A DNA stretch of 64,000 nucleotides from Candidatus Cloacimonadota bacterium (GTDB lineage Bacteria; Cloacimonadota; Cloacimonadia; Cloacimonadales; TCS61): assembly GCA_021735645.1 (NCBI GenBank), contig JAIPGP010000004.1, forward strand, positions 3,225 to 67,224. The letters run 5' to 3'. Each line of letters opens with the position of its first letter. The stretch's first letter is position 1. The notes beneath the pieces are model-generated. The model had not been told where the DNA came from. It was given only the letters and a program-made list of their open reading frames with translations, and searched no databases. The translations under genes and the position numbers were made by a program. This document shows, one piece after another, positions 1,152 through 61,981 of this stretch.

Positions 1152-1196
1152 TATAAGTCGTATAGGTCATATAAGTCCTATAAGCCCTATAAGCCA
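1152..1196. repeat. tandem 9-bp array, 5 units (TATAAGTCG TATAGGTCA TATAAGTCC TATAAGCCC TATAAGCCA)
   Basis: Read directly. It ends 2 nt from the stop codon (1199-1201) of the radical SAM gene. The core is the reverse complement of the array at 41198-41260. Confidence 0.9.
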
Positions 1197-3956: not shown

Positions 3957-4211
3957 ATAAAATATCTTACATTACATTACCTTGTTCGCGTTTGTTCGGT
4001 TTGTTCGCGGCTAAATTATCTTCACATTATAATCGTAGCTTAATCCCGGATTAAGCATTAATTTCCATCAAACTGGAAAGTATAAAATATCTTACATTAC
4101 AATACCTTGTTCGCGTTTGTTCGGTTTGTTCGCGGCTTAAAATTATCTTCACATTATAATCGTAGCTTAATCCTCCCGGATTAAGCATTAATTTCCATCA
4201 AACTGGAAAGT
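3957..4211. repeat. tandem duplication, two units of about 125 and 130 bp
   Basis: Unit 1 is 3957-4081 and unit 2 is 4082-4211, differing by small indels. Each unit contains ATAAAATATCTTACATTAC, a TTGTTCGnn x3 nonamer array, ATCTTCACATTATAAT, the palindrome GCTTAATCC(C)GGATTAAGC and TTCCATCAAACTGGAA. Confidence 0.9.
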
Positions 4212-4271
4212 TTGATCTACATCTAACTTACCTTCTTTCTTCGCATTACATTTTTTCGCGTAATTTCGCGC

Positions 4272-4335
4272 CTTTCGCGGTTCAAATAAAGTGAAGGTCA
4301 GAAAGTTTGAAGATTTGAGGGTTTGATGTAAACTT
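4272..4335. repeat. 64-bp dispersed repeat, copy 2
   Basis: Matches 3817-3880 with one mismatch. It is preceded by a TTTCGCG x3 array (4254-4280). Confidence 0.9.
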
Positions 4336-9659: not shown

Positions 9660-12600
9660 TTATTTGATTAAAATGATTTTCTTGGTAATATCAAGATTAC
9701 GAGCTTTCAATCTGGCAAAATACATTCCTGTACCTGTAGTTTTACCTGAAGCATTTCTTCCATCCCAGACTACAGAATGATTACCCTTATCAAGATGTTC
9801 ATTGACCAATTCCCTGACTAATTGCCCTTTGATATTATAAATACTGAGATTTATCTCAGTGTTTTCACTCAAATTAAATGAAAGGGTTGTCGAAGGGTTA
9901 AATGGATTAGGATAGCTTTTTAAAACTGTCACAGCATTCCCGAAATTATCTTCAGGTTTTTCTCTTGCTGATGAATAAACTTGAATATCATCAAAGGCAA
10001 ATCCGTCATAACCGATAATCTCATTATCGTAATGCTGAAATTTAACAACGTAATGTGAATTTAGATCCCAGGTAAGATTCGCTGCAATTGCTGATATATC
10101 CAACACTACATTTGTCCATGTTTTATCTTCATGATGCTCACCATTAATATCATAGATTTTTACAAAATTCAATCCCGCATCCTTAGAGAGGTAAATTCCG
10201 TCTCCAGCCTGATATTCATCAGCGAAATCTCTCCACCAGAAATCAAGTTCTACATCAGTTTCATCCTCAAGGTCCAAATATAAAAATGCCCTGTTATACA
10301 CATAAACTCCAGTTGTATCACTTGACATAACAAGATATTCCTGGCCCCCATGAGCATACCCATAATCAGAAGTGACTTCAATCAAACCATGTGCATCACT
10401 GGATTCAATATCCCAGTAATCATCCAGACCTGATTCGAAATCTATACTATAGGGAAGTTCAGCATAGTTTGAATAGATTTGAATATCATCAAAAGCAAAG
10501 CCATCGCTACTTATTGGAAAATTATCATACTGTTCGAATCTGATAATGAAATTATTGTTATATTCCAATCCTGCCGTGTTTATGGCTGCATCAAGATCTA
10601 TCACTATATTTTCCCAGCCACTGCCATTAATTAATGAATAAATTTTACTGAAGTGATCTCCATTGTCATCTGATATGAATACGCCATCATAATAATGAGT
10701 TTCATCATTAAATTCCCTCCACCAGAAATCAAGCATCAATCTGTCTTCGCCTGTGAGATTTAGATGTAAATCTGCCTTGTTGTATACATATTCATAGAAT
10801 GTATTTGAGTCCATGGTCATATGCTTTGTTCCACTATGAGGGGAATTATCTGAAGTAATTAAAATTCTGCCATAAGTCGGATCTGTCTCTAATCTCCAAT
10901 TCTTATCCAGCCCCTCCTCGAATCCCATCGAATAAGGTACTGTAGCATATGTCTTCAAATAACGGTATTCCCTTAAATCCTGAACGTAGTTTGCCCTGTT
11001 GGCTGTTATTATCCAGTTATCACCAACTGAGCTATTAAATTGATAAGGTGATATCCCACGTCCCTGGAGCACTCCTGCATCATTTATTACACTTACAAGT
11101 GCTTCAACAGGATTACCCTGAGTATCAAAAACTTCAAATTCAGGATATGGATTAACAGGGTCTACAATGATATTTTCACTAAGAACAAGTTGCCTGGCTT
11201 CATCAGACCATATACTCAAACTTGGATCTCCGAATAAGGTATAACCTAAATATATTAACCTGTACAAATACATTGAAAAGAGATTGTCATATAAATGCCA
11301 GGCTTCATTAGTTATATATCCCAAAGTATGTTCATCGTCAATAAACTGTAAATCCAGATATTCCTGTACTATAAATCGTGAAATACTCGGATAATCGGTT
11401 GCCGATGAGGCATAGATTGCTACTGGACCACCCACGTGATTAAAAAATACTTCATTGATACAATTCTCTGCATTATAAACCGTCACAGGTTCAGTTTCCA
11501 CCCAATAGTCTGACCAGCCATTGGGTCCCAAATTACAGATGACTTCGTCATATTCATCTCTGGCACAATCCTGGGAAGAACTTATATAATTCAAGTCCAT
11601 TGTTCTACATGATGCTATCCAGGTAAAGTATGTATTCCCAAGTGATTGTGGTAAAACATCTTCAAGCTGCAGGTAACTCTCTGCTGGAGTTGTGTAGAAA
11701 TATTTCCATTCACCATCATGGGCTCCACCTACCTGTAGTTCATAATAACAACTCCCTTCATCTACTTTATTAGTATTTATGCTTAAAGATTGCTTATGAT
11801 GACCAAAACCCTGCTCGTAGGCTGAATCGTTATGATCAAACTCACTGTCCAGGATAGTAAATTGATCCACTCCATGCCATACTCCATATAAAAATGAGTA
11901 ATCCCTGGACTGAAGCACATCTACCACTTCAGTAGCTGGACCATTTACTACGTCAACTAAATCTTCACATAACAATGATTCACAGCTAATAGTATTTCCA
12001 ACATGGGTCATTATATCACTCACAAAAGAATCGTATAGATCATAAGAATCATTTTTTGGTACATTTGTGGATATAAAACTCATCCTGGCAACATCATTAA
12101 TATCATTCGTCCGATAATTCTGGTACTTGGTTATATAATTTTCAACCTCAGTAGAATTACTTACTGGTAATCGACCCACGTAAAGATCAATATCAGTATC
12201 TATGTCCATTATATCATCATCCTGAGGCCAGACTGATAATACATTACTATAATAAAAATCGGTTGATGCAGTAATAGTACTTCCTAAATGGTCATATACT
12301 ATTTGATGCGACGGAACTAAATCAGTACTACCTCCGATTATCACATATTGCAAGCTTGGATATGTCGTTTTCCGGGCTGCCAGCCAGTTTCTTATTGCTG
12401 TAGAAGTTGAATCTGTGGTTGCTAATGTGACTACATCTGTCACTATTCCTTCTTCAGTCTTGATCTCTGCAAACTCTTCAAAATCATCTTCCAATGCATC
12501 AACCGTAATGATTACTAACTCTGCAGCAAGTGATCGGTTATCTCTCAACTCTTGATGATTAATTTTGTGCTCTGTATTCTCCATCGATGAAATTATGGTC

Positions 12601-16669: not shown

Positions 16670-16705
16670 GTCCATAATGTCCATATTGTCCATTGTGTCC
16701 ATAAA
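16670..16705. repeat. tandem 9-bp array, 4 units (GTCCATAAT GTCCATATT GTCCATTGT GTCCATAAA)
   Basis: Read directly. It begins 40 nt after the stop of 16100..16630 and is preceded by CATTTCGCATT. Confidence 0.9.
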
Positions 16706-29755: not shown

Positions 29756-29947
29756 AAAAAAGACGAACCAAGCTTCAGCTACAAAGTGACGCCCTCCAAG
29801 TCCACTGCATCCTCTGCGTTCTCTGCGTCCACTTAGTACACTCCCTATCTATTTATGGCAGGTAGAATATTGGAATAACAAAAAAAAATTGCTTTACTCA
29901 TAAAAGGTTCATGGAGTATTTGATAATAAAAATCAGGAGGCTATAAT

Positions 29948-33469: not shown

Positions 33470-33478
33470 AAATATTTG

Positions 33479-33562
33479 TCTGAATCAGGATTTACAGGAT
33501 TTAAGATATTTACAGGATTAATGAAAGGAGAATGATATAAATACTGTAAATCCAGATTCAGA
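33479..33562. repeat. 19-bp-arm inverted repeat enclosing a 9-bp-periodic array
   Basis: TCTGAATCAGGATTTACAG (33479-33497) pairs with CTGTAAATCCAGATTCAGA (33544-33562) with one mismatch. Internal array AGGATTTAC AGGATTTAA GATATTTAC AGGATTAAT (33487-33522). Confidence 0.85.
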
Positions 33563-33617: not shown

Positions 33618-34857
33618 GTGAATTGGACGGCATATATGTATATTGAAAGAGATTTACAAGATTATATCTTGAGGATCAACAAGTCCTTCTTTGCCCTTTT
33701 CCTTACTGGTGCCCGGCAAGTTGGTAAAACAACTTTACTTGAGCATCTTAGTGAAGATAAACGAAGATATATCACCCTTGATGACCCAGTATTAAAGGAG
33801 ATGGCAATTAATGATCCATCGATGTTCCTGCAAAGATTTCCAGCACCTCTGTTTATTGATGAAATTCAGTATGCGCCTGAGTTGTTTCCATACCTGAAAA
33901 TTCAGATCGATTCTTTACAGATTAATGGGTCATACTGGTTGAGTGGTTCGCAGCAGTTCTCTTTGACGAAAAATGTATCTGAATCATTAGCTGGAAGAAT
34001 AGCAGTTCTTAATCTTTATGGTTTAAGCCAGGCAGAACTTGATAATTCAGAAATAAAAAACACTGTTTTTACCTAAACCAGATGTTTTGGATCAGCGTTC
34101 TGTAGCTGATACGCAGCTTGATCTCGCAGGGGTGTATCAGCGAATATTCAGAGGACAGATGCCAGCTTTACATTCTGAGCAAAAGCCAGATACTTATCCA
34201 TTTTACAGTTCATATATCCAAACCTATATCCAGAGAGATGTTCGGTCATTTTTAAAAATCGGAGATGAGATGAGTTTTTACCGCTTTCTGCGTGCTGCAG
34301 CAGCACGAACAGGGCAACTTCTGAATAAGTCTGATCTTGCCCGTGTTGCTGGAATTTCTCCAACTACTGCCGAGAATTGGCTTTCCATTCTGCGAGCATC
34401 AGGTATCATCTACATTATGGAACCCTACTACAGAAATATAACTAAGCGACTGATTAAAAGTCCTAAACTCTATTTTCTCGATACCGGACTTTGCGCTCAT
34501 CTTACAGGCTGGCATAATTGGGAAACATTGGAAGCTGGTGCATTAAGCGGAGCTATTCTTGAAACATGGGTAGTTTCGGAAATCATTAAAAACTTTAATA
34601 ATAATGGTGTCCCGGCAAATTTCTATTATCTACGAACAAAAGACGGTAGTGAAATTGATCTGCTAATCGAATTAAATGGAGTTATCTATCCTTTGGAAAT
34701 AAAAAAAACTACTCACCCTTCAAAAAATGATATCGGACATTTTCATCTGCTGCAGAAAAATGGTTGTAACACAGCTACTGGAGGTGTTATCTGCCTTTGT
34801 AAACACCTGCTGCCTATTGATGAAAAAAATTATTCGATTCCCATAGGGATTATTTAA
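33618..34857 (+). pseudogene. AAA+ ATPase with DUF4143-type C-terminal domain, split by a frameshift near 34055-34076
   Basis: ORF 33618..34076 carries Walker A (LTGARQVGKTTLL) and Walker B-like (LFIDEIQ). ORF 34087..34857 lies in a different frame and carries the DUF4143-like part (KLYFLDTGL...). That second frame is open from 34057. The switch lies at the A6/T5 runs. Confidence 0.7.
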
Positions 34858-34905: not shown

Positions 34906-35249
34906 ACATTTTGTGCAGTACCTTACAATTAATATTCTGTCAATTTTTGGCAGAAAAGATTTTCAACCACTGACCACACTGACTTCACTGACGAAAATAA
35001 TGCCAGAATAAATCCGTTCTTTTCTTACATTGTCAGTGCTGTCCGTGACGTCCGGTGATAATCTTTCAATTGGTTTCGGTTTATCCGAGTTAGGCTTTTG
35101 CAAAGAGTGCTAATCCCGATACAGGGACAAGTGCAGTTGGATTTACCCATCACAGTTCACTGTTCACTGGTTAAATATTTAATATCATTTCCTATCTTAT
35201 TTTGTGCCAGATACTTGGTGCTATTTGTGAAATACTACTGCATAAAGTG
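34906..35249. repeat. about 345-bp dispersed repeat, copy R1
   Basis: Near-identical to 43251-43603, with a handful of substitutions plus 3-nt and 7-nt indels. Contains CACTGAC x3 (34967-34993), GTCnGTG x3 (35032-35058) and TTCACTG x2 arrays. Confidence 0.9.
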
Positions 35250-35286
35250 CGTTTAATCATCCCAGACCAGGGATGGTCTGGTTACA

Positions 35287-35313
35287 ATAAAAAAGCCACC
35301 GCTAGCGGTGGCT
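35287..35313 (-). terminator. terminator downstream of tRNA-Phe (hairpin usable on both strands)
   Basis: AGCCACC GCTAGC GGTGGCT hairpin. On the minus strand it is followed by TTTTTTATT. Confidence 0.7.
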
Positions 35314-35400: not shown

Positions 35401-35897
35401 ATTTAAATCAAAGTGAAGTGAAATAAATTAATCTATGATTATTCTGTCAAGTGAAAAAGTAATATCATAGCTAATAATAGAAATCTGGTATCCCCCTGTT
35501 TTTCTGAAAACCGCTATAGATATCTCAAGAACTTATAAATGGTTAGGCGTATTTTATAAGCAAATTTTTCACTCTCATTAACACCGGGTTTCTAACCTGG
35601 TGAAAAGCGAAAAAGAATATGGATTGAGTGGCTTCAGCCACTTCTTATAATAATAATTCATACCATTCTGGATTTTAGTATAACAAACTCAAATACAGAG
35701 GGAAATCACTGAAGTGATTATACATCGTTCATCATTAACCCCTAAGTTAATTTAGGGGTTAATGAGAATGATTTATTTGATGCTATTGGTAAACTAAAAT
35801 GAAATCAATTTCAGGAGGATACCAGCTAATAATAGAAATACCTTGTAAAGAAAATCAGGGATTATTTTTTTAGCAAAAATGCCTAAAGGAAATAATT

Positions 35898-38441: not shown

Positions 38442-38480
38442 TTTGGGTTAGTGGTTAGTGGTTAATCAGTGAGACGTCCT

Positions 38481-38617
38481 CTGAGACCTTGCGGATGGTC
38501 TTGCACCTCCGCAATGGTCGACCATTGAGAAGAGATCACCAGTCTAATGTCCAGCATATTACCTTAGATACTAAGTCAACCATTGCGGAGGTTTAGCAAC
38601 CATCCGCAAGGTCTCAG
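38481..38617. repeat. MITE-like inverted-repeat element (about 40-bp arms, about 56-bp loop)
   Basis: CTGAGACCTTGCGGATGGTCTTGCACCTCCGCAATGGTCG (38481-38520) pairs with CAACCATTGCGGAGGTTTAGCAACCATCCGCAAGGTCTCAG (38577-38617). Related partial copies lie at 55811-55849 and 14021-14084. Confidence 0.85.
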
Positions 38618-39008
38618 CTGGTTAATACGTATTGCATTACATTCCTCTGTGTCCTCTGTGCCTCTGTGGTAAAAAGTCTTACATTACATTAGCTGTACTC
38701 AGCGTCCGTGTTGTCAGTGTAGTCCGTGGTTGTAAAAATCTTACATTGCATTATCCATATTAATCGATAAAATCCGTGGCTAATGAGTAATTTTGAAGTT
38801 TGAATTGAATGTAATATAATATAATGTAATCAGACCAGGTCTGGGTAGGCAAACGACTCACGACATTAAGCATCAACTCATAAATATCTGTAGATTTAAA
38901 CTTGTTCTTTGCCTTATATCTGTGTTGTTCATCGCTGCATATCAGAAGTTATTGAAGCTCTTCACGCCTGGCATAATTCAAAACCTCTGCGTGCAATGTA
39001 ACAGATAT

Positions 39009-39896: not shown

Positions 39897-41132
39897 TTAT
39901 TTCACTTTCGGTGTGAAGATAGTGTATAAGCCTCCGGCAATGATCTGTGATACTTCTTTCTCGCTGTAACCCATGATTTTCACACCTATTTCCACCAGAA
40001 GTTTTAGCTCTGCCTGATTGATATCACTATCCGCCAGCACAATATCCAGCAGATAATTCATCAACGAATCCCGTTCTGAGGGATTTTCTTTAAGAATATT
40101 AACTACTGATTTCACGAACTTATCCTGCACATTTTTTGATTTCACCATTTCATCCAGATATTTGCGGGGATATAGCGTGAATCGTGAGATATAGCTCACG
40201 ATTCTCTCATACTCATCTTCTGCCATTGCTTCATCACAGCCGCTCACTATCAGTCCGCCAGTTGCCATAAACACCATTCGGTCATGATTAAGTCCTTCTG
40301 CCAGGGCAGTATGCTCTTCCACAAGCTTTTGCACTGCCGCTTCCAGCTTTTCATCAGCACTTAGCGTATTACCTGCCAGAGTATCATTGAATAATGGTGA
40401 TTTGGAGAATAACTGCAAAGCCTTCACCCGGACAGGATTGATCGGATGGGTGCTCTGGTCAAATGCCTGCTCACCTTTCAAATTCTTGAGCAGTTCGTCA
40501 TTTTTTCGTATATAAGAGCGGATATTAATGCCCAGCTCACGCCAGTCCAATCCGGATGTCAGCTTAAAAAAGCTGCTCACTGCCGGCTCCAAATCTCCAC
40601 AGGCAAGCAACCCAAACCGGTCAGCACTAAGCTCTGAAAGCCTCTGCCAGTACATGATCCGGTTATGGTAATAAAAAGGTATCTTCTTATTTTCGTTAAA
40701 TATAAACTGGATCACCTGCTGCAATGAACGGTTCCCTGTCCACAAATGCCCAATTTCGTGACCGATGATAAAAAGAAGTTCATCTTTTGTAAAATTCTTG
40801 ATAACAGCAGAATTAATGGTAATGATATGTGGCTGATCCGGGGCATCAGACTCGATGCAGAAAGCATTATATTCCGGGGAGTTCATAACATAATATTCAA
40901 TTTTTCCCTCGTATCCGGTGCGTTTCTGGGCTTCCTGACAGATTGCCCAGATTTCCTCACAAAAATCCTCTCCTACTTTAAAATATATGCCATTGAACAT
41001 ATTCGTGATTGATTTACGCTTATCCACCTGCGCTGCCAGTAACAATTCATTGATCAGCTTCTCATGCAGATTCTTTCTTATCTCCTCGGTAAAACTCCGT
41101 TCCAGTTCTATCCGTAATAATGAATAATCCAT
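39897..41132 (-). CDS. M48-type zinc metallopeptidase domain fused to a TerB-like C-terminal domain
   Basis: The start is chosen at the ATG preceded by AGGAGG (the track uses a TTG at 41180). HEIGH zinc motif, with downstream LSELSADRFG supplying a candidate third-ligand E. The C-terminal ~120 aa (DEAMAEDEYERIV...DSDINQAELKLLVEIG) resemble TerB/DjlA-N tellurite-resistance-like domains. Confidence 0.7.
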   Translation of the reverse strand: MDYSLLRIELERSFTEEIRKNLHEKLINELLLAAQVDKRKSITNMFNGIYFKVGEDFCEEIWAICQEAQKRTGYEGKIEYYVMNSPEYNAFCIESDAPDQPHIITINSAVIKNFTKDELLFIIGHEIGHLWTGNRSLQQVIQFIFNENKKIPFYYHNRIMYWQRLSELSADRFGLLACGDLEPAVSSFFKLTSGLDWRELGINIRSYIRKNDELLKNLKGEQAFDQSTHPINPVRVKALQLFSKSPLFNDTLAGNTLSADEKLEAAVQKLVEEHTALAEGLNHDRMVFMATGGLIVSGCDEAMAEDEYERIVSYISRFTLYPRKYLDEMVKSKNVQDKFVKSVVNILKENPSERDSLMNYLLDIVLADSDINQAELKLLVEIGVKIMGYSEKEVSQIIAGGLYTIFTPKVK

Positions 41133-41197
41133 GCTACCTCCTATGAGATTAGCTTTGTAATTTTCTATTTTTTCTGTCAACCAGCTTTTCCAGATGA

Positions 41198-41260
41198 CTT
41201 ATAGGATTCATAGGGCTTATAGGGCTTATAGGGCTTATAGGGCTTATAGATCTTATAGGA
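41198..41260. repeat. tandem 9-bp array, 7 units (CTTATAGGn)
   Basis: CTTATAGGA TTCATAGGG CTTATAGGG x3 CTTATAGAT CTTATAGGA. It ends 6 nt from the histidine kinase stop codon (41267-41269). Confidence 0.95.
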
Positions 41261-41266
41261 GGGTAA

Positions 41267-43120
41267 TTAGATTTCTATGCGGAAGCAGGCTCCTGAGGGG
41301 GTGTTTTTAACTAAGAGTTTGCCTTTCATATTATTTTCAATGATCAGCTTTGACATGTATAAGCCCAAACCAGTCCCCTTTTCACGAGATTTGGTTGAGA
41401 AATAGGGATTAAAAATTTTGGTGATAATCTCGGGATCAATTCCCCCGGCATTATCTTCAATTGTCAAAACCGCATGTTTCGAACGCTGGGAGATAAATGA
41501 TTTGATCAGGATAGCTGGACTTTTCACCTGCTTCTCCTGCAGAGCGTCTCTGGCATTATTGATGATATTCATCACAACCTGACTGTAATAATTTGGAAAG
41601 CCATGAGCGGTTATATCCTTCAGGTTCAAGGTAACATTAATATTGCTTTGTTTCAGAGAATGTTCTACAAAACGCAAGGTTGTCTGGACAATGTCTTTCA
41701 CATTGAAATCACCAGGTACTATGTCCGGGCGGAAAAAATTCCGGAAGTCATTGATGGTATTACTCATAAATTCCACCAGATCAAGCATGCTCTGGCAGTT
41801 TTTAAAGAGGAAGTCCCTGTCAAATTCATTGTATTCCCAGCCATCCATCAGGTTTTGAGTGATCAAGCTAATGCCATTGAGCGGTTGACGCCACTGGTGG
41901 GCAATACAAGCCATCATTTCACCCATTGATGCCTGTCGGGATTGCAGCATCAGCATCTGATCTTTTTGACGCATAAGCTCCAGTTGTCTGTTAAGCTCTT
42001 TTTGCAGGTTATCATTTAATGATTTCAGCTTCTTTTTCTGGATTGAAATTTGCTCATTCTTTCTTTTAAGCTCGATATTCCGCAGCCGGAAAATTTCATT
42101 TTCCTTCTCTTTTTCCTTTACTTCAAAATCCTTCTGAAGTTTAGCTATCTGCTGCAGATTCTCTTCCTGGGTCATTTCCTGCCAGGTATCAGTTAATAGC
42201 TCATGATATTCAAGAGCTTTCAGGAAATCACCGCTATGCTTATAATATTCTGTGGCAATAGCATATAATGACTTTGCCAGTGGCTTAGCGCCAATTTCAC
42301 GAGAAATAGCAATTCCTTCCTGAAAGGCAGCCAGGGACTTTGGCATTAATCCGTCTAAAAAATACAACCTGCCAAGGGTTGATAGACAGTGGCAAATCCC
42401 CCATTTATCCTTGATCTCTCTTTTAATTGCCAGAGATTTTTCTATCTGCTTAAGCGCTTCCTCCTCACGGCCCGTTTCTAAATAACTATTAGCAATATTC
42501 AAATATGAATTTGCCATCAACTTAAGATCATTCTCCTGCTCAAAGATCAATAACGCTTTCAGTAAATATTCTTCTGCCTCTTTGTACTGACCCAACTTCA
42601 GAAAGCAGATACCTATATTATTTAGAACATTTGCGGCATTATGACTGCTCGTATCTTTTAAAAGAGTAAAACCTTTCCGATATATTTCCATAGCAGTTTT
42701 AAAATCGTCTTCTATCCAGTAGATCATGCCAATATTATTATAGGCATTAAAGAGTAGTTTTTTATCACCTAACTTTTCGGCAATCTGCTTAAGATCAAGA
42801 TATTCAACTAATGCCTTGGAATAATTACCCTGATACCAGTGTATAGTCCCCTTAAAATTATTGATTTTAGCTGACTGCTGCAGATTACCATGATCGACAG
42901 CGATCTTCTCGGCAGGATTAAGCACTTCCCTTGCCTTTTGATAGTTGCCTAAATGAGAATATACTTCGGATAGGAGCAGATAGCATTTAAATTGATTATC
43001 AAAATTACCCGATTCTATATATTGAGCCAACAGCTTCTGAGCCTGTTGCTCAACCAGACCCGGAGCTTCCTGGATTTGATGATTTAGTTTTTGAAATATG
43101 TCTTCTTCTTCTTTTAGCAT
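41267..43120 (-). CDS. cytoplasmic sensor histidine kinase with N-terminal TPR repeats and coiled coil
   Basis: 617 aa with AAGGAG upstream of the ATG. About 7 TPR-like repeats, then a K/E-rich coiled coil. H-box CIAHQWRQPLN. HATPase_c N/G boxes (NIINNARDAL, DNAGGI, GTGLGLYMS). No TM segment, and no response regulator adjacent. Confidence 0.85.
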   Translation of the reverse strand: MLKEEEDIFQKLNHQIQEAPGLVEQQAQKLLAQYIESGNFDNQFKCYLLLSEVYSHLGNYQKAREVLNPAEKIAVDHGNLQQSAKINNFKGTIHWYQGNYSKALVEYLDLKQIAEKLGDKKLLFNAYNNIGMIYWIEDDFKTAMEIYRKGFTLLKDTSSHNAANVLNNIGICFLKLGQYKEAEEYLLKALLIFEQENDLKLMANSYLNIANSYLETGREEEALKQIEKSLAIKREIKDKWGICHCLSTLGRLYFLDGLMPKSLAAFQEGIAISREIGAKPLAKSLYAIATEYYKHSGDFLKALEYHELLTDTWQEMTQEENLQQIAKLQKDFEVKEKEKENEIFRLRNIELKRKNEQISIQKKKLKSLNDNLQKELNRQLELMRQKDQMLMLQSRQASMGEMMACIAHQWRQPLNGISLITQNLMDGWEYNEFDRDFLFKNCQSMLDLVEFMSNTINDFRNFFRPDIVPGDFNVKDIVQTTLRFVEHSLKQSNINVTLNLKDITAHGFPNYYSQVVMNIINNARDALQEKQVKSPAILIKSFISQRSKHAVLTIEDNAGGIDPEIITKIFNPYFSTKSREKGTGLGLYMSKLIIENNMKGKLLVKNTPSGACFRIEI

Positions 43121-43250
43121 AGCCTACTCCTTTCTTATTTAATAATTTATATTTAAAGATAATTAAGTCAAGTTAAATTCTCTTTAAATCTTTATCTGGC
43201 ATCCACCCATTTTTCTGAACCCTGTAATAGAGATATTATTAATATTTAAT

Positions 43251-43603
43251 ACATTTTGTGTAGTACCTTACAATTAATATTCTGTCAACTTTTGGCAGAA
43301 AAGATTTTCAACCACTGACCACACTGACTTCACTGACGAAAATAATGCCAGAATAAATCCGTTCTTTTCTTACATTGTCAGTGCTGTCCGTGACGTCCGT
43401 GGTTGATAATCTTTCAATTGGTTTCGGTTTATCCGAGTTAGGCTTTTGCAAAGAGTGCTAATCCCGATACAGGGACAAGTGCAGTTGGATTTACCCATCA
43501 CAGTTCACTGTTCACTGTTCACTGGTTAAATATTTATTATCATTTCCTATCTTGTTCTGTGCCAGAAATTTGGTGCTATTTGTGAAATTTTACTGCATAA
43601 AGT
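43251..43603. repeat. about 345-bp dispersed repeat, copy R2
   Basis: See 34906-35249. It sits between the divergent histidine kinase (start 43120) and lipoprotein (start 43667) genes. Confidence 0.9.
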
Positions 43604-43666
43604 GGGATTAAATGTTTATTAATTGACAAACTTAGGATATATTTCTTAATTTTGCTGGAGGTTATT

Positions 43667-51450: not shown

Positions 51451-51630
51451 CCCACTCTCATTAACCCTCAGATTCATCTGGGAAACGGCATACTCCACCC
51501 TATCTAAACACTAATAGTCGCTTCACCTACTTCCCACTCTCATTAACCCCCAGATTTATCTGGGGGACTGCATACTCCACCACCACCCTATCTAAACACT
51601 AATAGTCGCTTCACCTACTTCCCACTTTCC
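51451..51630. repeat. tandem duplication (82-bp + 88-bp units plus a partial third) upstream of gdhA
   Basis: The units start with CCCACTCTCATTAACCC at 51451 and 51533. A third start, CCCACTTTCC, at 51621 abuts the stop codon of 51630..52886. Each unit has a CCCnCAGATTnATCTGGG hairpin. Confidence 0.9.
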
Positions 51631-52886
51631 TAAAACCCCAAAAACTCCCACCCCTGGAACTGCTCATCTATTAGTATCATCCTGCCACCCAGCTTCCCGG
51701 CTATCTGCTCTGCGGATACTCCATCAATTGTAAACCGCTCACTATTAAAGCTGTTACTGGCAAATACTGCCACCTCATCGTCACCCAATATAAGCTGCTT
51801 CTCAATATCACTCCAGGTTAGCAGTCCCGCCACTGTCACGTCCGCACCAAAATAATCATTGAGTATTGACTGCACTCTCGCCTTCCCCGGTAATTCTGCA
51901 TTGATTTCAGCAACTATCTTCCCGATATACTCTTCTGCCAGCAGCCCTGTCACAAAAACCAGCGTCGGCTCTATTTCCCGGATATCAGCAATAAAAACCT
52001 TTTTCTCTTCTGCCCAGTTCATTAAAAGCATCCGTATCATACCAATCCCGTTCTCCAACTGCTCAAAATCCTCATAATACTCAGCATCAGGGATATCCAC
52101 TCCCGCTTTGATATAGATCTCATCTGAACACCGGGTTCGTCTATACCGCGAAGTAGCTGCCAAAATCTGCCCCGATTCTTCAGCAGTAATCACTCGCAAC
52201 TCCTTGAGACCTTCCCGATACTTTGTAAGTCCGACCGGCACTATCCCGATACTTAGACAATTATAGCCCAGACTGTCCAGATCTGCCAGACTCCGCTCCA
52301 GCTCTACCCCATCATTATAACCGGGCACAACTACTATCTGGGTATGAAAAGAAATGTCGTTTTTATCTAAAAACCGCAGCTTTTCCATGATATTGAACTC
52401 TCGATCATAACGCAGCATCTCTTGATGTAATACCGGATTTGTGGTATGCACAGAAATGTATAAAGGACTCAGATTCTGCTCAATTATCTTGCGGTAATCC
52501 CGATCAGTGAGATTGGTAAGAGTGATAAAATTGCCATAATAAAACGAAAAACAGGTGTCATCATCCTTAATATACAGCGTCTCCCGCAGTCCCGACGGCA
52601 TCTGATCTATAAAACAGAATATACAGTCGTTCACGCATTGCCGGCAGAAATGGTCATCTGCGATTATACCTAACGGTTTCTCCCAGCTATCCTGAACCTT
52701 AAATACCTGCAAACTGCCATCCAGCCGCTCTATCTCAAGTTGCAGTTTCTCGTCACCACTGTAATATTTCAAATCTATAAAATCTATTATTCGATGACCA
52801 TTTATTGATAATACCCGCTCGCCAGGAACCAGTCCCAGGCTCTCTGCCCAACTGCCTTCTGCTACTTCTTTTATTCGTAAAGCCAT
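51630..52886 (-). CDS. PDZ-domain plus DUF512-type (radical-SAM-like) protein
   Basis: 418 aa. N-terminal PDZ-like region (GSWAESLGLVPGERVLSINGH). Cysteine cluster CRQCVNDCIFCFIDQMP. Layout matches the DUF512/TIGR03279-type family as recalled. Confidence 0.7.
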   Translation of the reverse strand: MALRIKEVAEGSWAESLGLVPGERVLSINGHRIIDFIDLKYYSGDEKLQLEIERLDGSLQVFKVQDSWEKPLGIIADDHFCRQCVNDCIFCFIDQMPSGLRETLYIKDDDTCFSFYYGNFITLTNLTDRDYRKIIEQNLSPLYISVHTTNPVLHQEMLRYDREFNIMEKLRFLDKNDISFHTQIVVVPGYNDGVELERSLADLDSLGYNCLSIGIVPVGLTKYREGLKELRVITAEESGQILAATSRYRRTRCSDEIYIKAGVDIPDAEYYEDFEQLENGIGMIRMLLMNWAEEKKVFIADIREIEPTLVFVTGLLAEEYIGKIVAEINAELPGKARVQSILNDYFGADVTVAGLLTWSDIEKQLILGDDEVAVFASNSFNSERFTIDGVSAEQIAGKLGGRMILIDEQFQGWEFLGF

Positions 52887-54294: not shown

Positions 54295-54454
54295 TACCTC
54301 CTGTTTTTAATATAAAATAAACATTTAATCTCTATTGCCAACAAATAATTTCCAAAATCCCAAACCTGGGATAGTCTGGGTACAATCTCCCTCAACCACA
54401 AAGTGCCCAAGTTGTAACACAGGGAATGGACAGGGTGGACGTTATGGACATAGA

Positions 54455-54508
54455 GTCTATATTGTCCATAGTGTCTATAATGTCCATAGTGTCTATAATG
54501 TCCATAGC
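54455..54508. repeat. tandem 9-bp array, 6 units (alternating GTCTATAnT / GTCCATAGn, so also 18-bp x3)
   Basis: Read directly. It has the same GTCCATA core as 16670-16705 and is preceded by the inverted copy TATGGACATAG. Confidence 0.95.
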
Positions 54509-54564
54509 ACTTCTTCGCAAAATTTTCTGTTGACTCTCATTAACAAGATAAAGAATTTATCATC

Positions 54565-55749: not shown

Positions 55750-55957
55750 GTTTTTCATAAGATATCCAACCAGATAAATTACCTAACGGTTGTACTTGCG
55801 TAACGAGTGGCAACCATTGCGAAGGTTTAGCAACCATTCGCAAGGTTTAACTTGCTGGTTACTTTACAGGCATCCCCCTGCTTTATTTACTAATAACAAC
55901 ATGTAACACGCTAATTAATATAGATTTACAGGTTATTATTTCTTGAAATTGTTCTTT

Positions 55958-60352: not shown

Positions 60353-61981
60353 TTATAAGGCATTAAACGGATTATCTTCATCTACTTCGTCTTTTTTATC
60401 ATGCTTGTAGCTCTGCCAGTCATTGTCCCGGCCTCGATCGCGATCACGTCCACCGTCACGTCCACCGTCACGTCCACCGTCACGAGAATCTCTCTTTTCT
60501 GTTTCGGGCATGTCTGTGGGTTCCAAAGATATTCTTCTACTGTCAATATCCACTCTTGAAACTCTCACGCTTACTGTTTCACCAATATTTTCCTTGGTAT
60601 AAGTGAGATTTGCCATCTTCATTTTACTGTTCGGCAATAAACCCGTAACGCCTTCAGAGATTTTGATAAAGGTGCCAAAATTTGCTACATTCTCTATCAC
60701 ACCGTCAATCACATCATTTACTCTGATCACATCATCAATAGATTCCCAGGGGTCTGGCTGCAATGCCTTTAAGGAAAGAGATACTTTCCGTTCAGCAGGA
60801 CGCACTTTTAGCACCTGAACTTCAACAATGTCACCCGGTTTGAGAATATCATTGGCATTTACAACGCGGCGGTTTCTATCCATTTCGGAAATCGGGATCA
60901 AGCCTTCTACGCCGGGCTGAATTTCCACAAAAGAGCCAAAGGGCAGATTGCGTAATACGCGACACTTGATAGTTGAACCCTCTTCCAGTTCGGCAAGCAC
61001 TAAATCAGTAGGATCAGGAGTCATTGCCTTAAAACTGAGAGAGACTTTATCACCCTTTAAGCGAATGATCTTGGCTTCTACATCTTCACCAATGTTAACC
61101 ATATCAGAAGGAGATTCCACCCGTCTGTGTGCAAATTCAGAAATATGCAGCAGTCCTTCCAGACCACCAATATCAATGAATGCACCAAAATTAGTCAATC
61201 GCACTACTTTACCGGTAATGATGTCACCAATCTGGATTTTGGAAAGCGTCATTTCTTTCTGCTGCTTTTCTGCTTCTTCCAGAATAGCGCGGCGTGAAAG
61301 AACTATGTTTTTACCTTTTTCTGAAAAATCTATCACCCGGAAATCAAAATCATTGCTCAGGTACACTTTGTAGTCAGGAACCATCTTGTTACTGATCTGG
61401 CTAAGCGGACAAAATGCTCTAATCCCGGAAACATCAACCAGCAAGCCACCTTTGATCATACTGATCACTTTTCCAGCCACAGGTATCTTCTGGTCATAAG
61501 CTTCACGCAGGATGTGAAGATTTACACCAATCAAACTGCGGGATATACAAGTTTCAGTGTCTGAATATTTAGAAATGTATCCAGATAAATTGTCTCCGAC
61601 TTTGTACTTTAGTGCACCGGTTTTATCGGCGAACTCACTTTTATCAGCGTAAGCATCACGCTTACCGCCTAAAGTAACAAAGATAAACGAATCTGTGATA
61701 TTAATGATCTCGCCAGTAACTTTGTCACCAATCTGGTGATCTGTGATACCAGCCAGTGATTTTTCCAGCATTTCATCATAATCGTCGTCAGAATCGTTGT
61801 CTTCAGTCTCGTCTTCTGTTTCTTCGATTTCTTCTAATTCAGGTTCTACAACTTCATCGCTCTTAATTGGTTCTTCTTTCTCTTCCGTTTCTACCGCTTC
61901 CGCAGGAACGGACTTCTCTTCGATAGTAACTTCTTCTGCCATTGGCATCTCTTCCTCTCGGATTTCATTGTCTTTTTCCAT
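60353..61981 (-). CDS. rpsA: 30S ribosomal protein S1 with acidic N-terminal extension and RDGG-repeat tail
   Basis: 542 aa with repeated S1/OB motifs (GDKVTGEIINITDSFIFV, VAGKVISMIKGGLLVDV, ITGKVVRLTNFGAFIDIGGLEGLLHISE, IKCRVLRNLPFGSFVEI, VEVQVLKV, IDGVIENVANFGTFIKI). The N-terminal ~75 aa are E/D-rich. The C-terminus is RDGGRDGGRDGGRDRDRGRD. Confidence 0.9.
   Translation of the reverse strand: MEKDNEIREEEMPMAEEVTIEEKSVPAEAVETEEKEEPIKSDEVVEPELEEIEETEDETEDNDSDDDYDEMLEKSLAGITDHQIGDKVTGEIINITDSFIFVTLGGKRDAYADKSEFADKTGALKYKVGDNLSGYISKYSDTETCISRSLIGVNLHILREAYDQKIPVAGKVISMIKGGLLVDVSGIRAFCPLSQISNKMVPDYKVYLSNDFDFRVIDFSEKGKNIVLSRRAILEEAEKQQKEMTLSKIQIGDIITGKVVRLTNFGAFIDIGGLEGLLHISEFAHRRVESPSDMVNIGEDVEAKIIRLKGDKVSLSFKAMTPDPTDLVLAELEEGSTIKCRVLRNLPFGSFVEIQPGVEGLIPISEMDRNRRVVNANDILKPGDIVEVQVLKVRPAERKVSLSLKALQPDPWESIDDVIRVNDVIDGVIENVANFGTFIKISEGVTGLLPNSKMKMANLTYTKENIGETVSVRVSRVDIDSRRISLEPTDMPETEKRDSRDGGRDGGRDGGRDRDRGRDNDWQSYKHDKKDEVDEDNPFNAL

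What the first reader, a model, noticed from the sequence alone, without database searches (positions are those of the whole stretch)
41198..41260. Intergenic DNA is populated by tandem arrays with a fixed 9-bp period but different cores (at least 14 arrays in 64 kb)
This array has seven CTTATAGGn units. Arrays of 3-7 units with a conserved 6-7-nt core and 2-3 variable nt occur at the following positions. 1152-1196 (TATAAGnnn x5). 3982-4010 and 4107-4135 (TTGTTCGnn x3). 4254-4280 (TTTCGCG x3, spacings 10 and 9). 16670-16705 (GTCCATAnn x4). 29794-29838 (CTCTGCGTn, 2 strong plus 3 degenerate units). 33487-33522 (AGGATTTAn x4). 34967-34993 (CACTGACnn x3). 35032-35058 and 43377-43403 (GTCnGTGnn x3). 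38644-38670 (CCTCTGTGn x3). 38704-38730 (GTCnGTGnn x3). 54455-54508 (GTCyATAnn x6). None lies inside a confident CDS. Five begin or end within about 40 nt of a stop codon (1199, 16630, 29755, 33469, 41267). A few 7-bp-period relatives exist (38445-38472 GGTTAGT, 43504-43524 TTCACTG). A constant period with changing cores is not explained by one satellite or by random slippage. Candidate explanations are recognition arrays for an oligomeric DNA/RNA-binding protein, 3-prime-end/termination or insulation elements, or a lineage-specific repeat-generating mechanism.
Basis: seen in the sequence. Interest (0 to 1): 0.7.

Follow-up and report, generated by a model that had tools for sequence, protein, structure and literature searches.

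The report
Nine-base tandem repeats filling intergenic DNA
The spaces between genes in this uncultured Cloacimonadota bacterium really are packed with short 9-base tandem repeats, but they behave like fast-evolving, partly mobile repeat DNA, a 9-base cousin of the 7-base repeats known from cyanobacteria and Bacteroidetes, and not like conserved gene-control signals.

Summary
In 7.9 kb of intergenic DNA I find 15 period-9 arrays against 1.4 expected from shuffles (10 vs 0.13 at a stricter cut-off). No other period comes close, and the density is about 8 times that of coding DNA. The window comes from a Cloacimonadota MAG close to 'Ca. Stygibacter'.

"Fixed period, unrelated cores" is only partly right.
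- Three listed arrays are copies: a 343-bp MITE with terminal inverted repeats occurs twice, and a 125-bp segment is tandemly duplicated.
- Four of seven nonamer families share a GTCC anchor.
- Relatives carry 7-, 8- and 10-bp arrays in the same kind of mosaic.

The arrays turn over quickly. Relatives at 87-88% protein identity lack the TATAAGCCC array while keeping the downstream TTGACA box. One orthologous GTCCATAnn array has 14 versus 3 units. Two relatives have different heptamers at the same position.

Stop-codon proximity is explained by avoidance of the promoter-proximal 65-110 nt.

Best reading: slippage-amplified, partly MITE-borne short tandem repeats, a nonamer variant of STRR/LSSR-type repeats. 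A protein that reads them is not excluded.

The parts
41198..41260 (-). Anchor array of 7 nonamer units. It reads CCCTATAAG on the - strand, which makes it the same family as 1152. The centre is homogeneous (4 identical units) and the edge units are degenerate. It lies 6 nt after the stop of the TPR-histidine kinase gene and 17 nt upstream of a conserved TTGACA box.
   Evidence: It is unstructured as a single strand. It is absent at the orthologous site in L006, and L001 has other arrays there.
41175..41180 (-). TTGACA box at the start of a roughly 50-nt block upstream of the M48 peptidase start codon (41132). The block is conserved in all relatives, and the array lies outside it.
   Evidence: Alignments. 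The consensus scan did not call a full sigma-70 promoter here, so the promoter assignment is an inference.
1152..1196 (+). TATAAG(T/C)CN x5, running as a gradient from GTC to GCC. It lies 2 nt from the stop of the radical-SAM gene (1199-2851, - strand). It is antisense to transcription, the opposite orientation to 41198.
16670..16705 (+). GTCCATAnn x4, preceded by TTTCGCATT. It lies 39 nt after a stop codon and 107 nt before the next start codon.
54426..54508 (+). Foldback module. Three inverted units (RTGGAC, period 9, at 54426-54452) face GTCYATAnn x6 (54455-54508). The long arm was built by an 18-bp higher-order duplication. It lies between divergent genes.
   Evidence: period 18, 95% matches; z = -3.8. 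An independent assembly gives the identical sequence.
29794..29838 (+). Degenerate CTCTGCGTY array (equal to GTCCTCTGC by rotation), with 2 good units and 3 weak ones.
33487..33522 (+). Degenerate AGGATTTAC x4. Its first unit forms part of a strong hairpin (33478-33558). The array is conserved but more degenerate in relative L048.
   Evidence: (z = -4.0).
34907..35249 (+). MITE-like element, copy 1. Its 14-nt terminal inverted repeats are CATTTTGTGCAGTA and TACTGCATAAAGTG. It contains CACTGACnn x3 (34967-34993), the inverted GTCnGTGnn x3 (35032-35058) and TTCACTG x3 (35150-35169). It is absent from the orthologous site in L048.
43252..43604 (+). MITE-like element, copy 2, 91-99% identical to copy 1. 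It contains CACTGACnn x3 (43313-43337), GTCnGTGnn x3 (43377-43403) and TTCACTG x4 (43498-43524, one unit more than copy 1). The orthologous intergenic region is 90 bp in L006 and L037, against 531 bp here.
38632..38752 (+). Higher-order mosaic in the order TTGCATTACATT, CCTCTGTGn x3, TTACATTACATT, GTCnGTGnn x3, TTACATTGCATT. Each triple array ends in GTGGT.
   Evidence: motif found 9 times vs 1.5 expected.
3957..4211 (+). 125-bp unit repeated twice. Each copy carries TTACATTACAWT followed by TTGTTCGCG / TTTGTTCGG / TTTGTTCGCGG (3982-4010 and 4107-4135). This is the same TTTGTTCGCG x3 module that has a clean 10-bp period in L032-L035.
4254..4280 (+). TTTCGCG x3 (spacings 10 and 9), preceded by TTCGCATTACATT. 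It is part of a 72-nt dispersed repeat (3809-3880 matches 4264-4335).
38445..38472 (+). Heptamer array GGTTAGT x3, starting immediately after the AsmA-family gene stop codon.

Best explanation
The arrays are short tandem oligonucleotide repeats. They belong to a lineage-specific set of mosaic, partly mobile intergenic repeat elements in the Stygibacter clade of Cloacimonadota.

How I think they arise:
- The basic module is a short word of 7-10 bp repeated about three times. It is often flanked by TTACATTACATT-type motifs and often present as an inverted pair, which makes a foldback.
- Modules are spread to new intergenic sites as parts of MITE-like elements and local duplications.
- Replication slippage or unequal exchange then expands, contracts and homogenises individual arrays (3 -> 4-7 units here, 14 in a relative).
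- Slippage preserves the unit length. Point mutations followed by homogenisation change the word.
- A genome therefore ends up with many arrays of one period and several related cores. Here these are mostly GTCC + 5 nt.
- Arrays persist only where they do no harm: outside genes and outside the roughly 65-110 nt promoter and 5'-UTR block in front of the next gene. That places them next to stop codons in short intergenic regions.

Shown: the excess, the family relationships, the insertion polymorphism, the copy-number change and the positional exclusion.

Inferred: slippage as the amplifying process, transposition as the dispersal process, and the absence of a conserved locus-specific function.
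For: Excess of period 9 in intergenic DNA only.

Turnover at orthologous sites:
- L006 (88% aa identity) and L001 (87%) keep the block with the TTGACA box and ribosome-binding site upstream of M48. L006 has no array at all, and L001 has other arrays.
- The 531-bp intergenic region 43121-43651 is 90 bp in L006 and L037.
- The roughly 430 bp between the ATPase gene stop codon and the tRNA-Phe terminator is missing in L048, at 93% aa identity.

Mobility:
- Two 343-353-bp copies at 91-99% identity have 14-nt terminal inverted repeats and AT-rich flanks.

Slippage signatures:
- TTCACTG has 3 units in one MITE copy and 4 in the other.
- The GTCCATAnn array after the EamA gene stop codon has 14 units in L003 and 3 in L038, with flanks that align closely.
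- Arrays at 41198 and in L003 have homogeneous centres and degenerate edges.
- The 54455 array grew by an 18-bp double-unit duplication.

Core turnover with the register kept:
- ACTTCTC x5 (L033/L034) and CGATTCA x5 (L032) sit at the same position in the mosaic.
- GTCCATAnn runs directly into GTCCTCnnn within one array.

Shared ancestry of the cores:
- GTCC is present in 4 of 7 families, against 4% expected per family.
- ATAMGCCnn x3 in L049-L051 links to TATAAGCCC.

Period is not universal. L002 has 7 heptamer arrays in 21 kb and no nonamer arrays. L032-L035 mix periods 7, 8 and 10. Distant Cloacimonadota have none.

Stop-codon proximity is expected once the promoter-proximal zone is excluded.

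Precedent: intergenic heptamer arrays that are absent from close relatives and that break assemblies are described for Bacteroidetes, Cyanobacteria and Beggiatoaceae (PMC4679880).
Against: - Variation within units is concentrated in 2-3 positions (p about 0.006-0.03). Pure neutral slippage does not predict this. It hints at constraint on a 6-7-nt core.
- The same words recur at unlinked loci and in different genomes. This needs either mobility (shown only for the MITE) or selection.
- Triple arrays are remarkably constant at three units. TTTGTTCGCG x3 appears in every copy seen in four contigs from relatives, plus a less regular 9-10-bp version in the window. Part of this may be a detection threshold effect.
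- GTCC lies on the sense strand of the neighbouring gene in about 8 of 10 independent arrays. This is not significant, but it is not what a neutral model predicts.
- No terminal inverted repeats or target duplications were found around the long arrays at 41198, 1152 and 16670, so their mobility is not shown.
- Copy numbers come from short-read assemblies, which can collapse arrays. L038 has an N gap close to its array.
Confidence: 0.55

Rival explanations
1. The arrays are recognition arrays for an oligomeric nucleic-acid-binding protein. It would read a roughly 7-nt core (or just the GTCC anchor) at 9-nt steps, a '7-2-7-2-7' layout. The protein could be a host factor, such as a nucleoid or regulatory protein or an RNA-binding protein, or the transposase of the mosaic elements. 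The fixed register would then be imposed by the protein's subunit spacing, and slippage would only supply the raw material.
For: - Conserved core with variable spacer positions.
- GTCC anchor shared across families.
- Constant three-unit modules, and inverted pairs of triples built from unrelated words but with the same architecture: CACTGAC / GTCAGTG at 34967-35058, ATAMGCC in L050 at 9735-9826, and CGCGAACAAA / TTTGTTCGCG in L034.
- Sense-strand bias of GTCC of about 8:2 (my count).
- From general knowledge, not tested here: the omega repressor of pSM19035 binds contiguous heptad arrays, and NarL sites are heptamers separated by 2 bp.
Against: - Arrays are not conserved at orthologous sites in relatives with 87-93% protein identity.
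- Several unrelated words (TTTGTTCGCG, TTTCGCG, AGGATTTAC) and other periods (7, 8, 10) occupy the same mosaic.
- No candidate binding-protein gene lies next to any array.
- Distance to the TTGACA box or start codon is not fixed: 17 to about 90 nt.
Confidence: 0.2
2. The arrays are 3'-end elements. When transcribed after a stop codon, the C-rich, G-poor, unstructured repeat (YC dinucleotides every 9 nt over about 60 nt) serves as a Rho loading site. It would terminate or insulate the upstream gene from the next promoter.
For: - 41198 on the transcribed strand is CCCUAUAAG x7: 63 nt, C:G of 3:1, and no structure (z = +1.8). It starts 6 nt after the stop codon, and no intrinsic terminator is called on that strand.
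- All five arrays in stop->start intergenic regions lie within 40 nt of the stop codon.
- The GTCC anchor supplies UC/CC dinucleotides.
- That Rho's primary sites bind YC dinucleotides is general knowledge and was not tested here.
Against: - The sister array at 1152 is G-rich on the transcribed strand and contains no YC.
- 54455 and 43313/43377 lie between divergent genes.
- 33487 has no YC.
- Orthologous genes in relatives do without the array.
- Stop-codon proximity is explained by promoter avoidance.
- The published C spacing in Rho loading sites is about 11-13 nt, from memory and not verified here.
Confidence: 0.07
3. The arrays are contingency loci. Gain or loss of units upstream of promoters would tune or switch expression of the downstream gene, as with the 7-bp repeats upstream of the Haemophilus hmw genes.
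For: - Arrays at 41198, 54455 and 16670 end 17-50 nt upstream of TTGACA/TTGACT/TTGACG boxes.
- Unit number differs between related genomes and between the two MITE copies.
Against: - No array lies between -35 and -10 elements or inside a coding sequence.
- The downstream genes are housekeeping types (M48 peptidase, MFS transporter, M3 peptidase), not surface antigens.
- No within-population length variation could be examined. The only second assembly is identical.
- Many arrays are far from any promoter.
Confidence: 0.08

Closest known systems
Short tandemly repeated repetitive (STRR) heptamers of heterocystous cyanobacteria, and the long simple sequence repeats (LSSR, 5-11-nt units) of Mrazek et al. 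2007
   Same: Head-to-tail arrays of a short word, confined to non-coding DNA. Several different words with one dominant unit length occur in the same genome. They are dispersed over many loci and vary between relatives. Slippage is the proposed driver (PMC4679880 introduction; PMC4692102).
   Different: The unit here is 9 nt (a 7-nt core plus 2 variable positions), not 7. In the LSSR survey, units that are multiples of three were mostly coding, whereas here they are non-coding. The phylum is Cloacimonadota, for which my literature searches found no report. Many arrays are fixed triples embedded in larger elements.
TAACTGA and other heptamer arrays of Beggiatoaceae, Cyanobacteria and Bacteroidetes (MacGregor 2015, PMC4679880)
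   Same: Intergenic arrays of 2-43 units. Closest relatives have shorter intergenic regions without the repeats. Assemblies break in the arrays. Clusters of different heptamers lie side by side. Relative L002 looks just like this: heptamer arrays fill the spacers between genes right up to the next start codon.
   Different: In the window the arrays are nonamers. They are not within a few nt of start codons, and they are mostly pyrimidine-rich on the sense strand. No single word dominates.
Mosaic intergenic repeats: BIME/REP of enterobacteria, the pneumococcal BOX element (with a variable number of boxB units), MITEs, and foldback elements whose arms are tandem subrepeats
   Same: Modular composition, with conserved motifs such as TTACATTACATT. 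Inverted arms form hairpins. There is insertion polymorphism between relatives, multiple near-identical copies, and terminal inverted repeats on the 343-bp element.
   Different: The subrepeat unit is much shorter (9-10 bp). No cognate transposase was identified. A RAYT-like Y1 transposase occurs in relative L037, but it is flanked by unrelated hairpins. The long arrays at 41198, 1152 and 16670 have no detectable element boundaries.
Heptad and iteron arrays bound by ribbon-helix-helix or initiator proteins (omega of pSM19035, ParR centromeres, plasmid iterons)
   Same: Contiguous short direct or inverted repeats at a fixed step, upstream of promoters.
   Different: No rep, par or ribbon-helix-helix gene lies nearby. 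The setting is chromosomal and housekeeping. The arrays are not conserved between relatives. This comparison rests on general knowledge only.

Membership tests
STRR / LSSR-type short tandem repeats | Head-to-tail arrays of a 5-11-nt unit, longer than chance allows | tested here: met
   TRF. Shuffle test gives 15 vs 1.4, 10 vs 0.13 and 7 vs 0.05.
STRR / LSSR-type short tandem repeats | Confined to non-coding DNA | tested here: met
   2.0 per kb in intergenic DNA against 0.25 per kb in coding DNA. The coding hits are weak codon-periodic matches.
STRR / LSSR-type short tandem repeats | Unit length of 7 nt (STRR in the strict sense) | tested here: not met
   The dominant unit is 9 nt. Only 3 heptamer arrays occur in the window. 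Relative L002 does meet this feature.
STRR / LSSR-type short tandem repeats | Rapid change of presence and copy number between related genomes | tested here: met
   Caveat: these are short-read assemblies.
MITE / mosaic intergenic repeat element | Multiple near-identical dispersed copies | tested here: met
   34907-35249 matches 43252-43604 at 91-99% identity. 3809-3880 matches 4264-4335 at 96%.
MITE / mosaic intergenic repeat element | Terminal inverted repeats | tested here: met
   14-nt arms, 86% complementary, at both ends of both copies. This applies only to the 343-bp element, not to the long arrays.
MITE / mosaic intergenic repeat element | Target-site duplication, with an empty site in a relative | tested here: inconclusive
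   Empty sites are seen in L048, L006 and L037. The flanks are AT-rich (ATTTAAT / ATTAAAT), but no clean duplication could be defined.
MITE / mosaic intergenic repeat element | A cognate autonomous element or transposase | not testable with these tools
   The rest of the genome is not available. No transposase is encoded in the window. The Y1 transposase in L037 has unrelated flanks.
Phase-variation (contingency) repeats | Repeat lies within a coding sequence or between promoter elements, so that unit number switches expression | tested here: not met
   Arrays lie 17-90 nt upstream of the TTGACA-type boxes, or far from any gene start.
Rho utilisation site | C>G, unstructured RNA of about 60-80 nt downstream of a stop codon, on the transcribed strand | tested here: inconclusive
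   Met by 41198, and partly by 16670 and 29794. Not met by 1152, 33487 or 54455.
Iteron / centromere / omega-type binding arrays | Adjacent gene for the cognate binding protein (Rep, ParR, ribbon-helix-helix) | tested here: not met
   Pfam annotation of 29 ORFs flanking or near the arrays finds none.
CRISPR array | Repeats of 23-55 nt separated by unique spacers of similar length | tested here: not met
   The units are 9 nt and contiguous.
Known structured RNA (Rfam) | Match to a curated covariance model | tested here: not met
   Only tRNA-Phe reaches threshold. Nothing overlaps any array at E <= 0.5.

The most novel reading that the evidence does not exclude
The 9-nt register is imposed by a factor that has not been described, not merely inherited. 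In this reading, a Stygibacter-clade protein binds GTCC-anchored heptamer cores at 9-nt steps, typically as three protomers per module. It could be a host nucleoid or RNA-binding protein, or the recombinase of the mosaic elements. The arrays would be its dispersed binding platforms. The switch between 7-, 9- and 10-nt registers among sister lineages would then track changes in that protein or in the replication and repair machinery.
Probability: 0.2. Interest if true: 0.7.

Novelty: new variant of a known kind. Interest (0 to 1): 0.4.

Why it matters
Tandem repeats with 7-nt units have been noted for decades in cyanobacteria and a few other phyla, without an accepted origin or function. Reports for 6-9-nt units are rare (PMC4692102).

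This clade offers sister lineages that favour 7-, 9- or 10-nt units in otherwise homologous mosaics. It shows visible steps of expansion, core replacement and MITE-borne dispersal. That makes it a natural comparison set for a long-standing question: is unit length set by the replication machinery, by a binding protein, or simply by descent?

Practically, these arrays break short-read assemblies of Cloacimonadota MAGs. They also inflate intergenic regions, so they can be mistaken for regulatory sites.

Tried and rejected
- **Known RNA families.** Rfam found nothing at gathering threshold or at E <= 0.5, apart from tRNA-Phe and noise.
- **Viral or mobile origin.** IMG/VR scans for GTCCATAnn x3 and TATAAGnCC x3 returned 25 contigs in all. 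In most of these the matching arrays belong to GC-rich or giant-virus contigs and look like coding repeats unrelated to this lineage; I did not check reading frames. TTTGTTCGCG x2 and the TTACATTRCATT...GTGG module gave no hits.
- **Metagenome scan.** The 1111-aa oxidoreductase query returned only one locus, L006. The genome scan returned three. A wide phylogenetic sample could not be built that way. I used homologue look-ups instead.
- **Strain-level polymorphism.** The only other assembly carrying identical proteins (SRR12088349) is identical in sequence, so it is uninformative.
- **Structure-based function.** 41198, 16670 and 29794 have no significant fold. Only the foldback-type loci do. 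A common hairpin or terminator role is therefore rejected.
- **Read-through translation of the array.** The frame after the kinase gene's stop codon is open (YKP repeats). However, two of the three frames of this unit are open anyway, so I dismissed it.
- **Palindromic-unit idea.** CTTATAGG and CATAATG are quasi-palindromes, but they depend on the variable positions, so I dismissed this too.
- **Pfam scan of the remaining ORFs.** One batch failed on a coordinate error and I did not repeat it.

Full report
**Source and setting.** The window is from an uncultured Cloacimonadota genome.
- The M48 peptidase (39897-41132, - strand) is 87% identical to that of a 'Candidatus Stygibacter frigidus' MAG. 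It is 68% identical to two other Cloacimonadota MAGs.
- Its exact sequence is on record in an NCBI 'Candidatus Cloacimonetes' contig of 68.7 kb.
- G+C is about 40%.
- Genes include T9SS-tailed C25 peptidase, dockerin proteins, serpin and glycogen metabolism. This matches the published description of the genus (PMC8542988). That paper does not mention DNA repeats.

**Checking the observation.** The anchor array at 41198-41260 is as described, with seven CTTATAGGn units (TRF period 9, 6.9 copies).
- TRF or a lag-9 scan recovers all listed arrays. One further array at 43313 was not listed.
- In 7.9 kb of intergenic DNA there are 15 period-9 arrays at score >=8, against 1.37 in dinucleotide shuffles. 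The figures are 10 vs 0.13 at >=10 and 7 vs 0.05 at >=12.
- No other period is comparable.
- Density is 2.0 per kb in intergenic DNA and 0.25 per kb in coding DNA. The coding hits are the usual weak codon periodicity.
- After collapsing copies, about 12 arrays are independent, still roughly ten times expectation.
- An independent assembly reproduces the 54455 array exactly and breaks inside the 41198 array.

**Two kinds of array.**
- *Long arrays of 4-7 units.* These are TATAAGnCC at 1152 and its reverse complement at 41198, and GTCCATAnn at 16670 and 54455.
- *Triple arrays.* These are GTCnGTGnn, CACTGACnn, CCTCTGTGn, TTTCGCGnn and TTGTTCGCG. Most are preceded by TTACATTACATT-like motifs (9 matches vs 1.5 expected) and end in GG.

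The two kinds are linked.
- At 54426-54508, an inverted triple (RTGGAC x3) faces a six-unit GTCYATA arm. That arm grew by an 18-bp double-unit duplication.
- The 16670 array is preceded by TTTCGCATT, a half motif.

**Several arrays are parts of larger repeats.**
- 34907-35249 and 43252-43604 are two copies (91-99% identical) of an element with 14-nt terminal inverted repeats (CATTTTGTGCAGTA / TACTGCATAAAGTG).
- This element carries CACTGACnn x3, the inverted GTCnGTGnn x3 and a TTCACTG heptamer array. The heptamer array has 3 units in one copy and 4 in the other.
- Both insertion sites are empty in relatives. L048 (93% aa identity) goes straight from the ATPase gene stop codon to the tRNA-Phe terminator. 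L006 and L037 have a 90-bp divergent promoter region where the window has 531 bp.
- 3982 and 4107 lie in a 125-bp tandem duplication.

**The cores are related.** After rotation, the families read as follows.
- GTCC-ATAAT.
- GTCC-TATAA, which is TATAAGTCC.
- GTCC-GTGnn.
- GTCC-TCTGY, which is CCTCTGTGT. CTCTGCGTC matches it at 8 of 9 positions.

A random intergenic 9-mer contains GTCC, on either strand and in any rotation, 4% of the time. Four of seven families contain it.

In L003 and L038, one array runs from GTCCATAnn directly into GTCCTCnnn in register. In L049-L051, triple ATAMGCCnn arrays link to TATAAGCCC. A constant period with changing cores therefore fits descent with modification inside arrays that keep their register.

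**Relatives show fast turnover, and the period is not fixed.**
- Upstream of M48, every relative keeps a roughly 50-nt block that starts with a TTGACA box and ends in the ribosome-binding site. The DNA beyond that block is unalignable.
- L006 has no array there. L001 has CTCTGTG x3 and an 8-bp array.
- L032-L035 carry a mosaic of TTTGTTCGCG x3 (clean 10-bp period, both orientations), heptamers and an 8-bp array.
- At one and the same position in that mosaic, L033/L034 have ACTTCTC x5 and L032 has CGATTCA x5.
- L002 has seven heptamer arrays in 21 kb and no nonamer arrays. They fill the short spacers between paralogous genes.
- L003 and L038, whose flanks align closely, share an array after the EamA gene stop codon with 14 versus 3 GTCCATA units. 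L038 has an assembly gap nearby.
- More distant Cloacimonadota (36% identity) show no such arrays.

**Position and orientation.**
- Five arrays lie within 40 nt of a stop codon, against 2.5 expected. All five are in stop->start intergenic regions of 134-280 bp, where the 65-233 nt before the next start codon are free of arrays. Avoidance of the promoter and 5'-UTR is enough to explain this.
- 54455 and 43313/43377 lie between divergent genes.
- The two TATAAG arrays have opposite orientation relative to transcription.
- Distance to the nearest TTGACA-type box ranges from 17 to about 90 nt.
- 41198, 16670 and 29794 have no significant secondary structure. Only the foldback-type loci and 33487 do.
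- No Rfam family matches.

**Signs of constraint that keep a functional reading alive.**
- Differences among units cluster in 2-3 of the 9 positions (p about 0.006 for the GTCCATA family, 0.012 for TATAAG, counting distinct units only).
- The triples are remarkably constant at three units. Three is also near my detection limit.
- Inverted pairs of triples recur with unrelated words but the same geometry.
- GTCC is on the sense strand of the adjacent gene in about 8 of 10 independent cases (not significant).

**Interpretation.** The best-supported account has four steps.
1. Short words are amplified by slippage.
2. They are carried around by MITE-like mosaic elements and local duplications.
3. 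They are homogenised and mutated within arrays.
4. They are tolerated only outside genes and promoter-proximal DNA.

This makes the phenomenon a nonamer-dominated, Cloacimonadota version of the STRR/LSSR class. In that class heptamers usually dominate, and polymerase-linked slippage has been proposed as the cause (Mrazek et al. 2007, as summarised in PMC4679880; PMC4692102). The published Bacteroidetes cases match it closely. Relatives there have shorter, repeat-free intergenic regions, contigs end in the repeats, and clusters of different heptamers lie side by side.

A protein that reads the arrays, Rho loading sites and promoter-tuning contingency repeats are kept as rivals with lower weight. 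None can be excluded without transcript or binding data.

**Novelty.** I found no report of such repeats in Cloacimonadota, and none of non-coding nonamer arrays as a dominant class. The kind of element is known. The unit length, the triple-module architecture and the 7/9/10-nt differences among sister lineages are new details. I rate it a new variant of a known kind, of moderate interest.

Noticed in passing
window 38470-38630; 55810-55849; L050 9600-9715 vs L049 11300-11345: A roughly 150-nt element with long nested inverted repeats (CCTTGCGRATGGT ... CCTCCGCAATGG and their complements). A fragment is tandemly repeated at 55810-55849. The full hairpin is present in L050 but truncated in L049 from another sample, so it is polymorphic. 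It could be a MITE or a structured RNA. There is no Rfam match.
   Followed up: partly
window 35262-35287; 54365-54379; L032 2940-2995; L034 520-550: A REP-like hairpin, CCAGACCAGGGATGGTCTGG followed by TTACAA, recurs in intergenic DNA of the window and its relatives.
   Followed up: partly
L037 8381-8827: A relative (78% aa identity) has an IS200/RAYT-type Y1 transposase gene next to tRNA-Phe. It is flanked by GTAACCCTGGAAGGGTTA-type hairpins, which are unrelated to the window's repeats.
   Followed up: partly
window 51451-51640; also 35572-35582 and 54534-54544: An 88-bp tandem repeat (2.2 copies) upstream of the radical-SAM/PDZ gene. Its CTCTCATTAAC motif followed by a small hairpin recurs at two other intergenic sites.
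   Followed up: no
window 33618-34076 and 34087-34857: The AAA_14/DUF4143 ATPase is split into two ORFs here. Relatives have it intact at 407 aa (P0086 and others). This is probably a frameshifted pseudogene or a sequencing error.
   Followed up: partly
L037 5732-5810 vs window 41267-43120: In L037 the TPR-histidine kinase gene is reduced to a roughly 90-nt remnant that fuses its first and last codons. The M48 gene follows without the TTGACA box.
   Followed up: no
L002 4060-4160, 5390-5470, 6855-6955: Pairs of different heptamer arrays fill the spacers between three paralogous - strand genes. One array overlaps the stop codon, and the arrays end about 20 nt before the next start codon. They are purine-rich on the sense strand. 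This resembles the Beggiatoaceae TAACTGA situation.
   Followed up: partly
window 60444-60484: A perfect 12-bp repeat, TCACGTCCACCG x3.4, inside the coding sequence 60353-61981 (- strand). It is a coding tetrapeptide repeat.
   Followed up: no
L003 1590-1790 vs L038: A 190-bp insertion with a long perfect inverted repeat (AAAGTGCAACAACTAAGCACAATCTGAC...) lies right after the GTCCATA array in L003 and is absent from L038.
   Followed up: no
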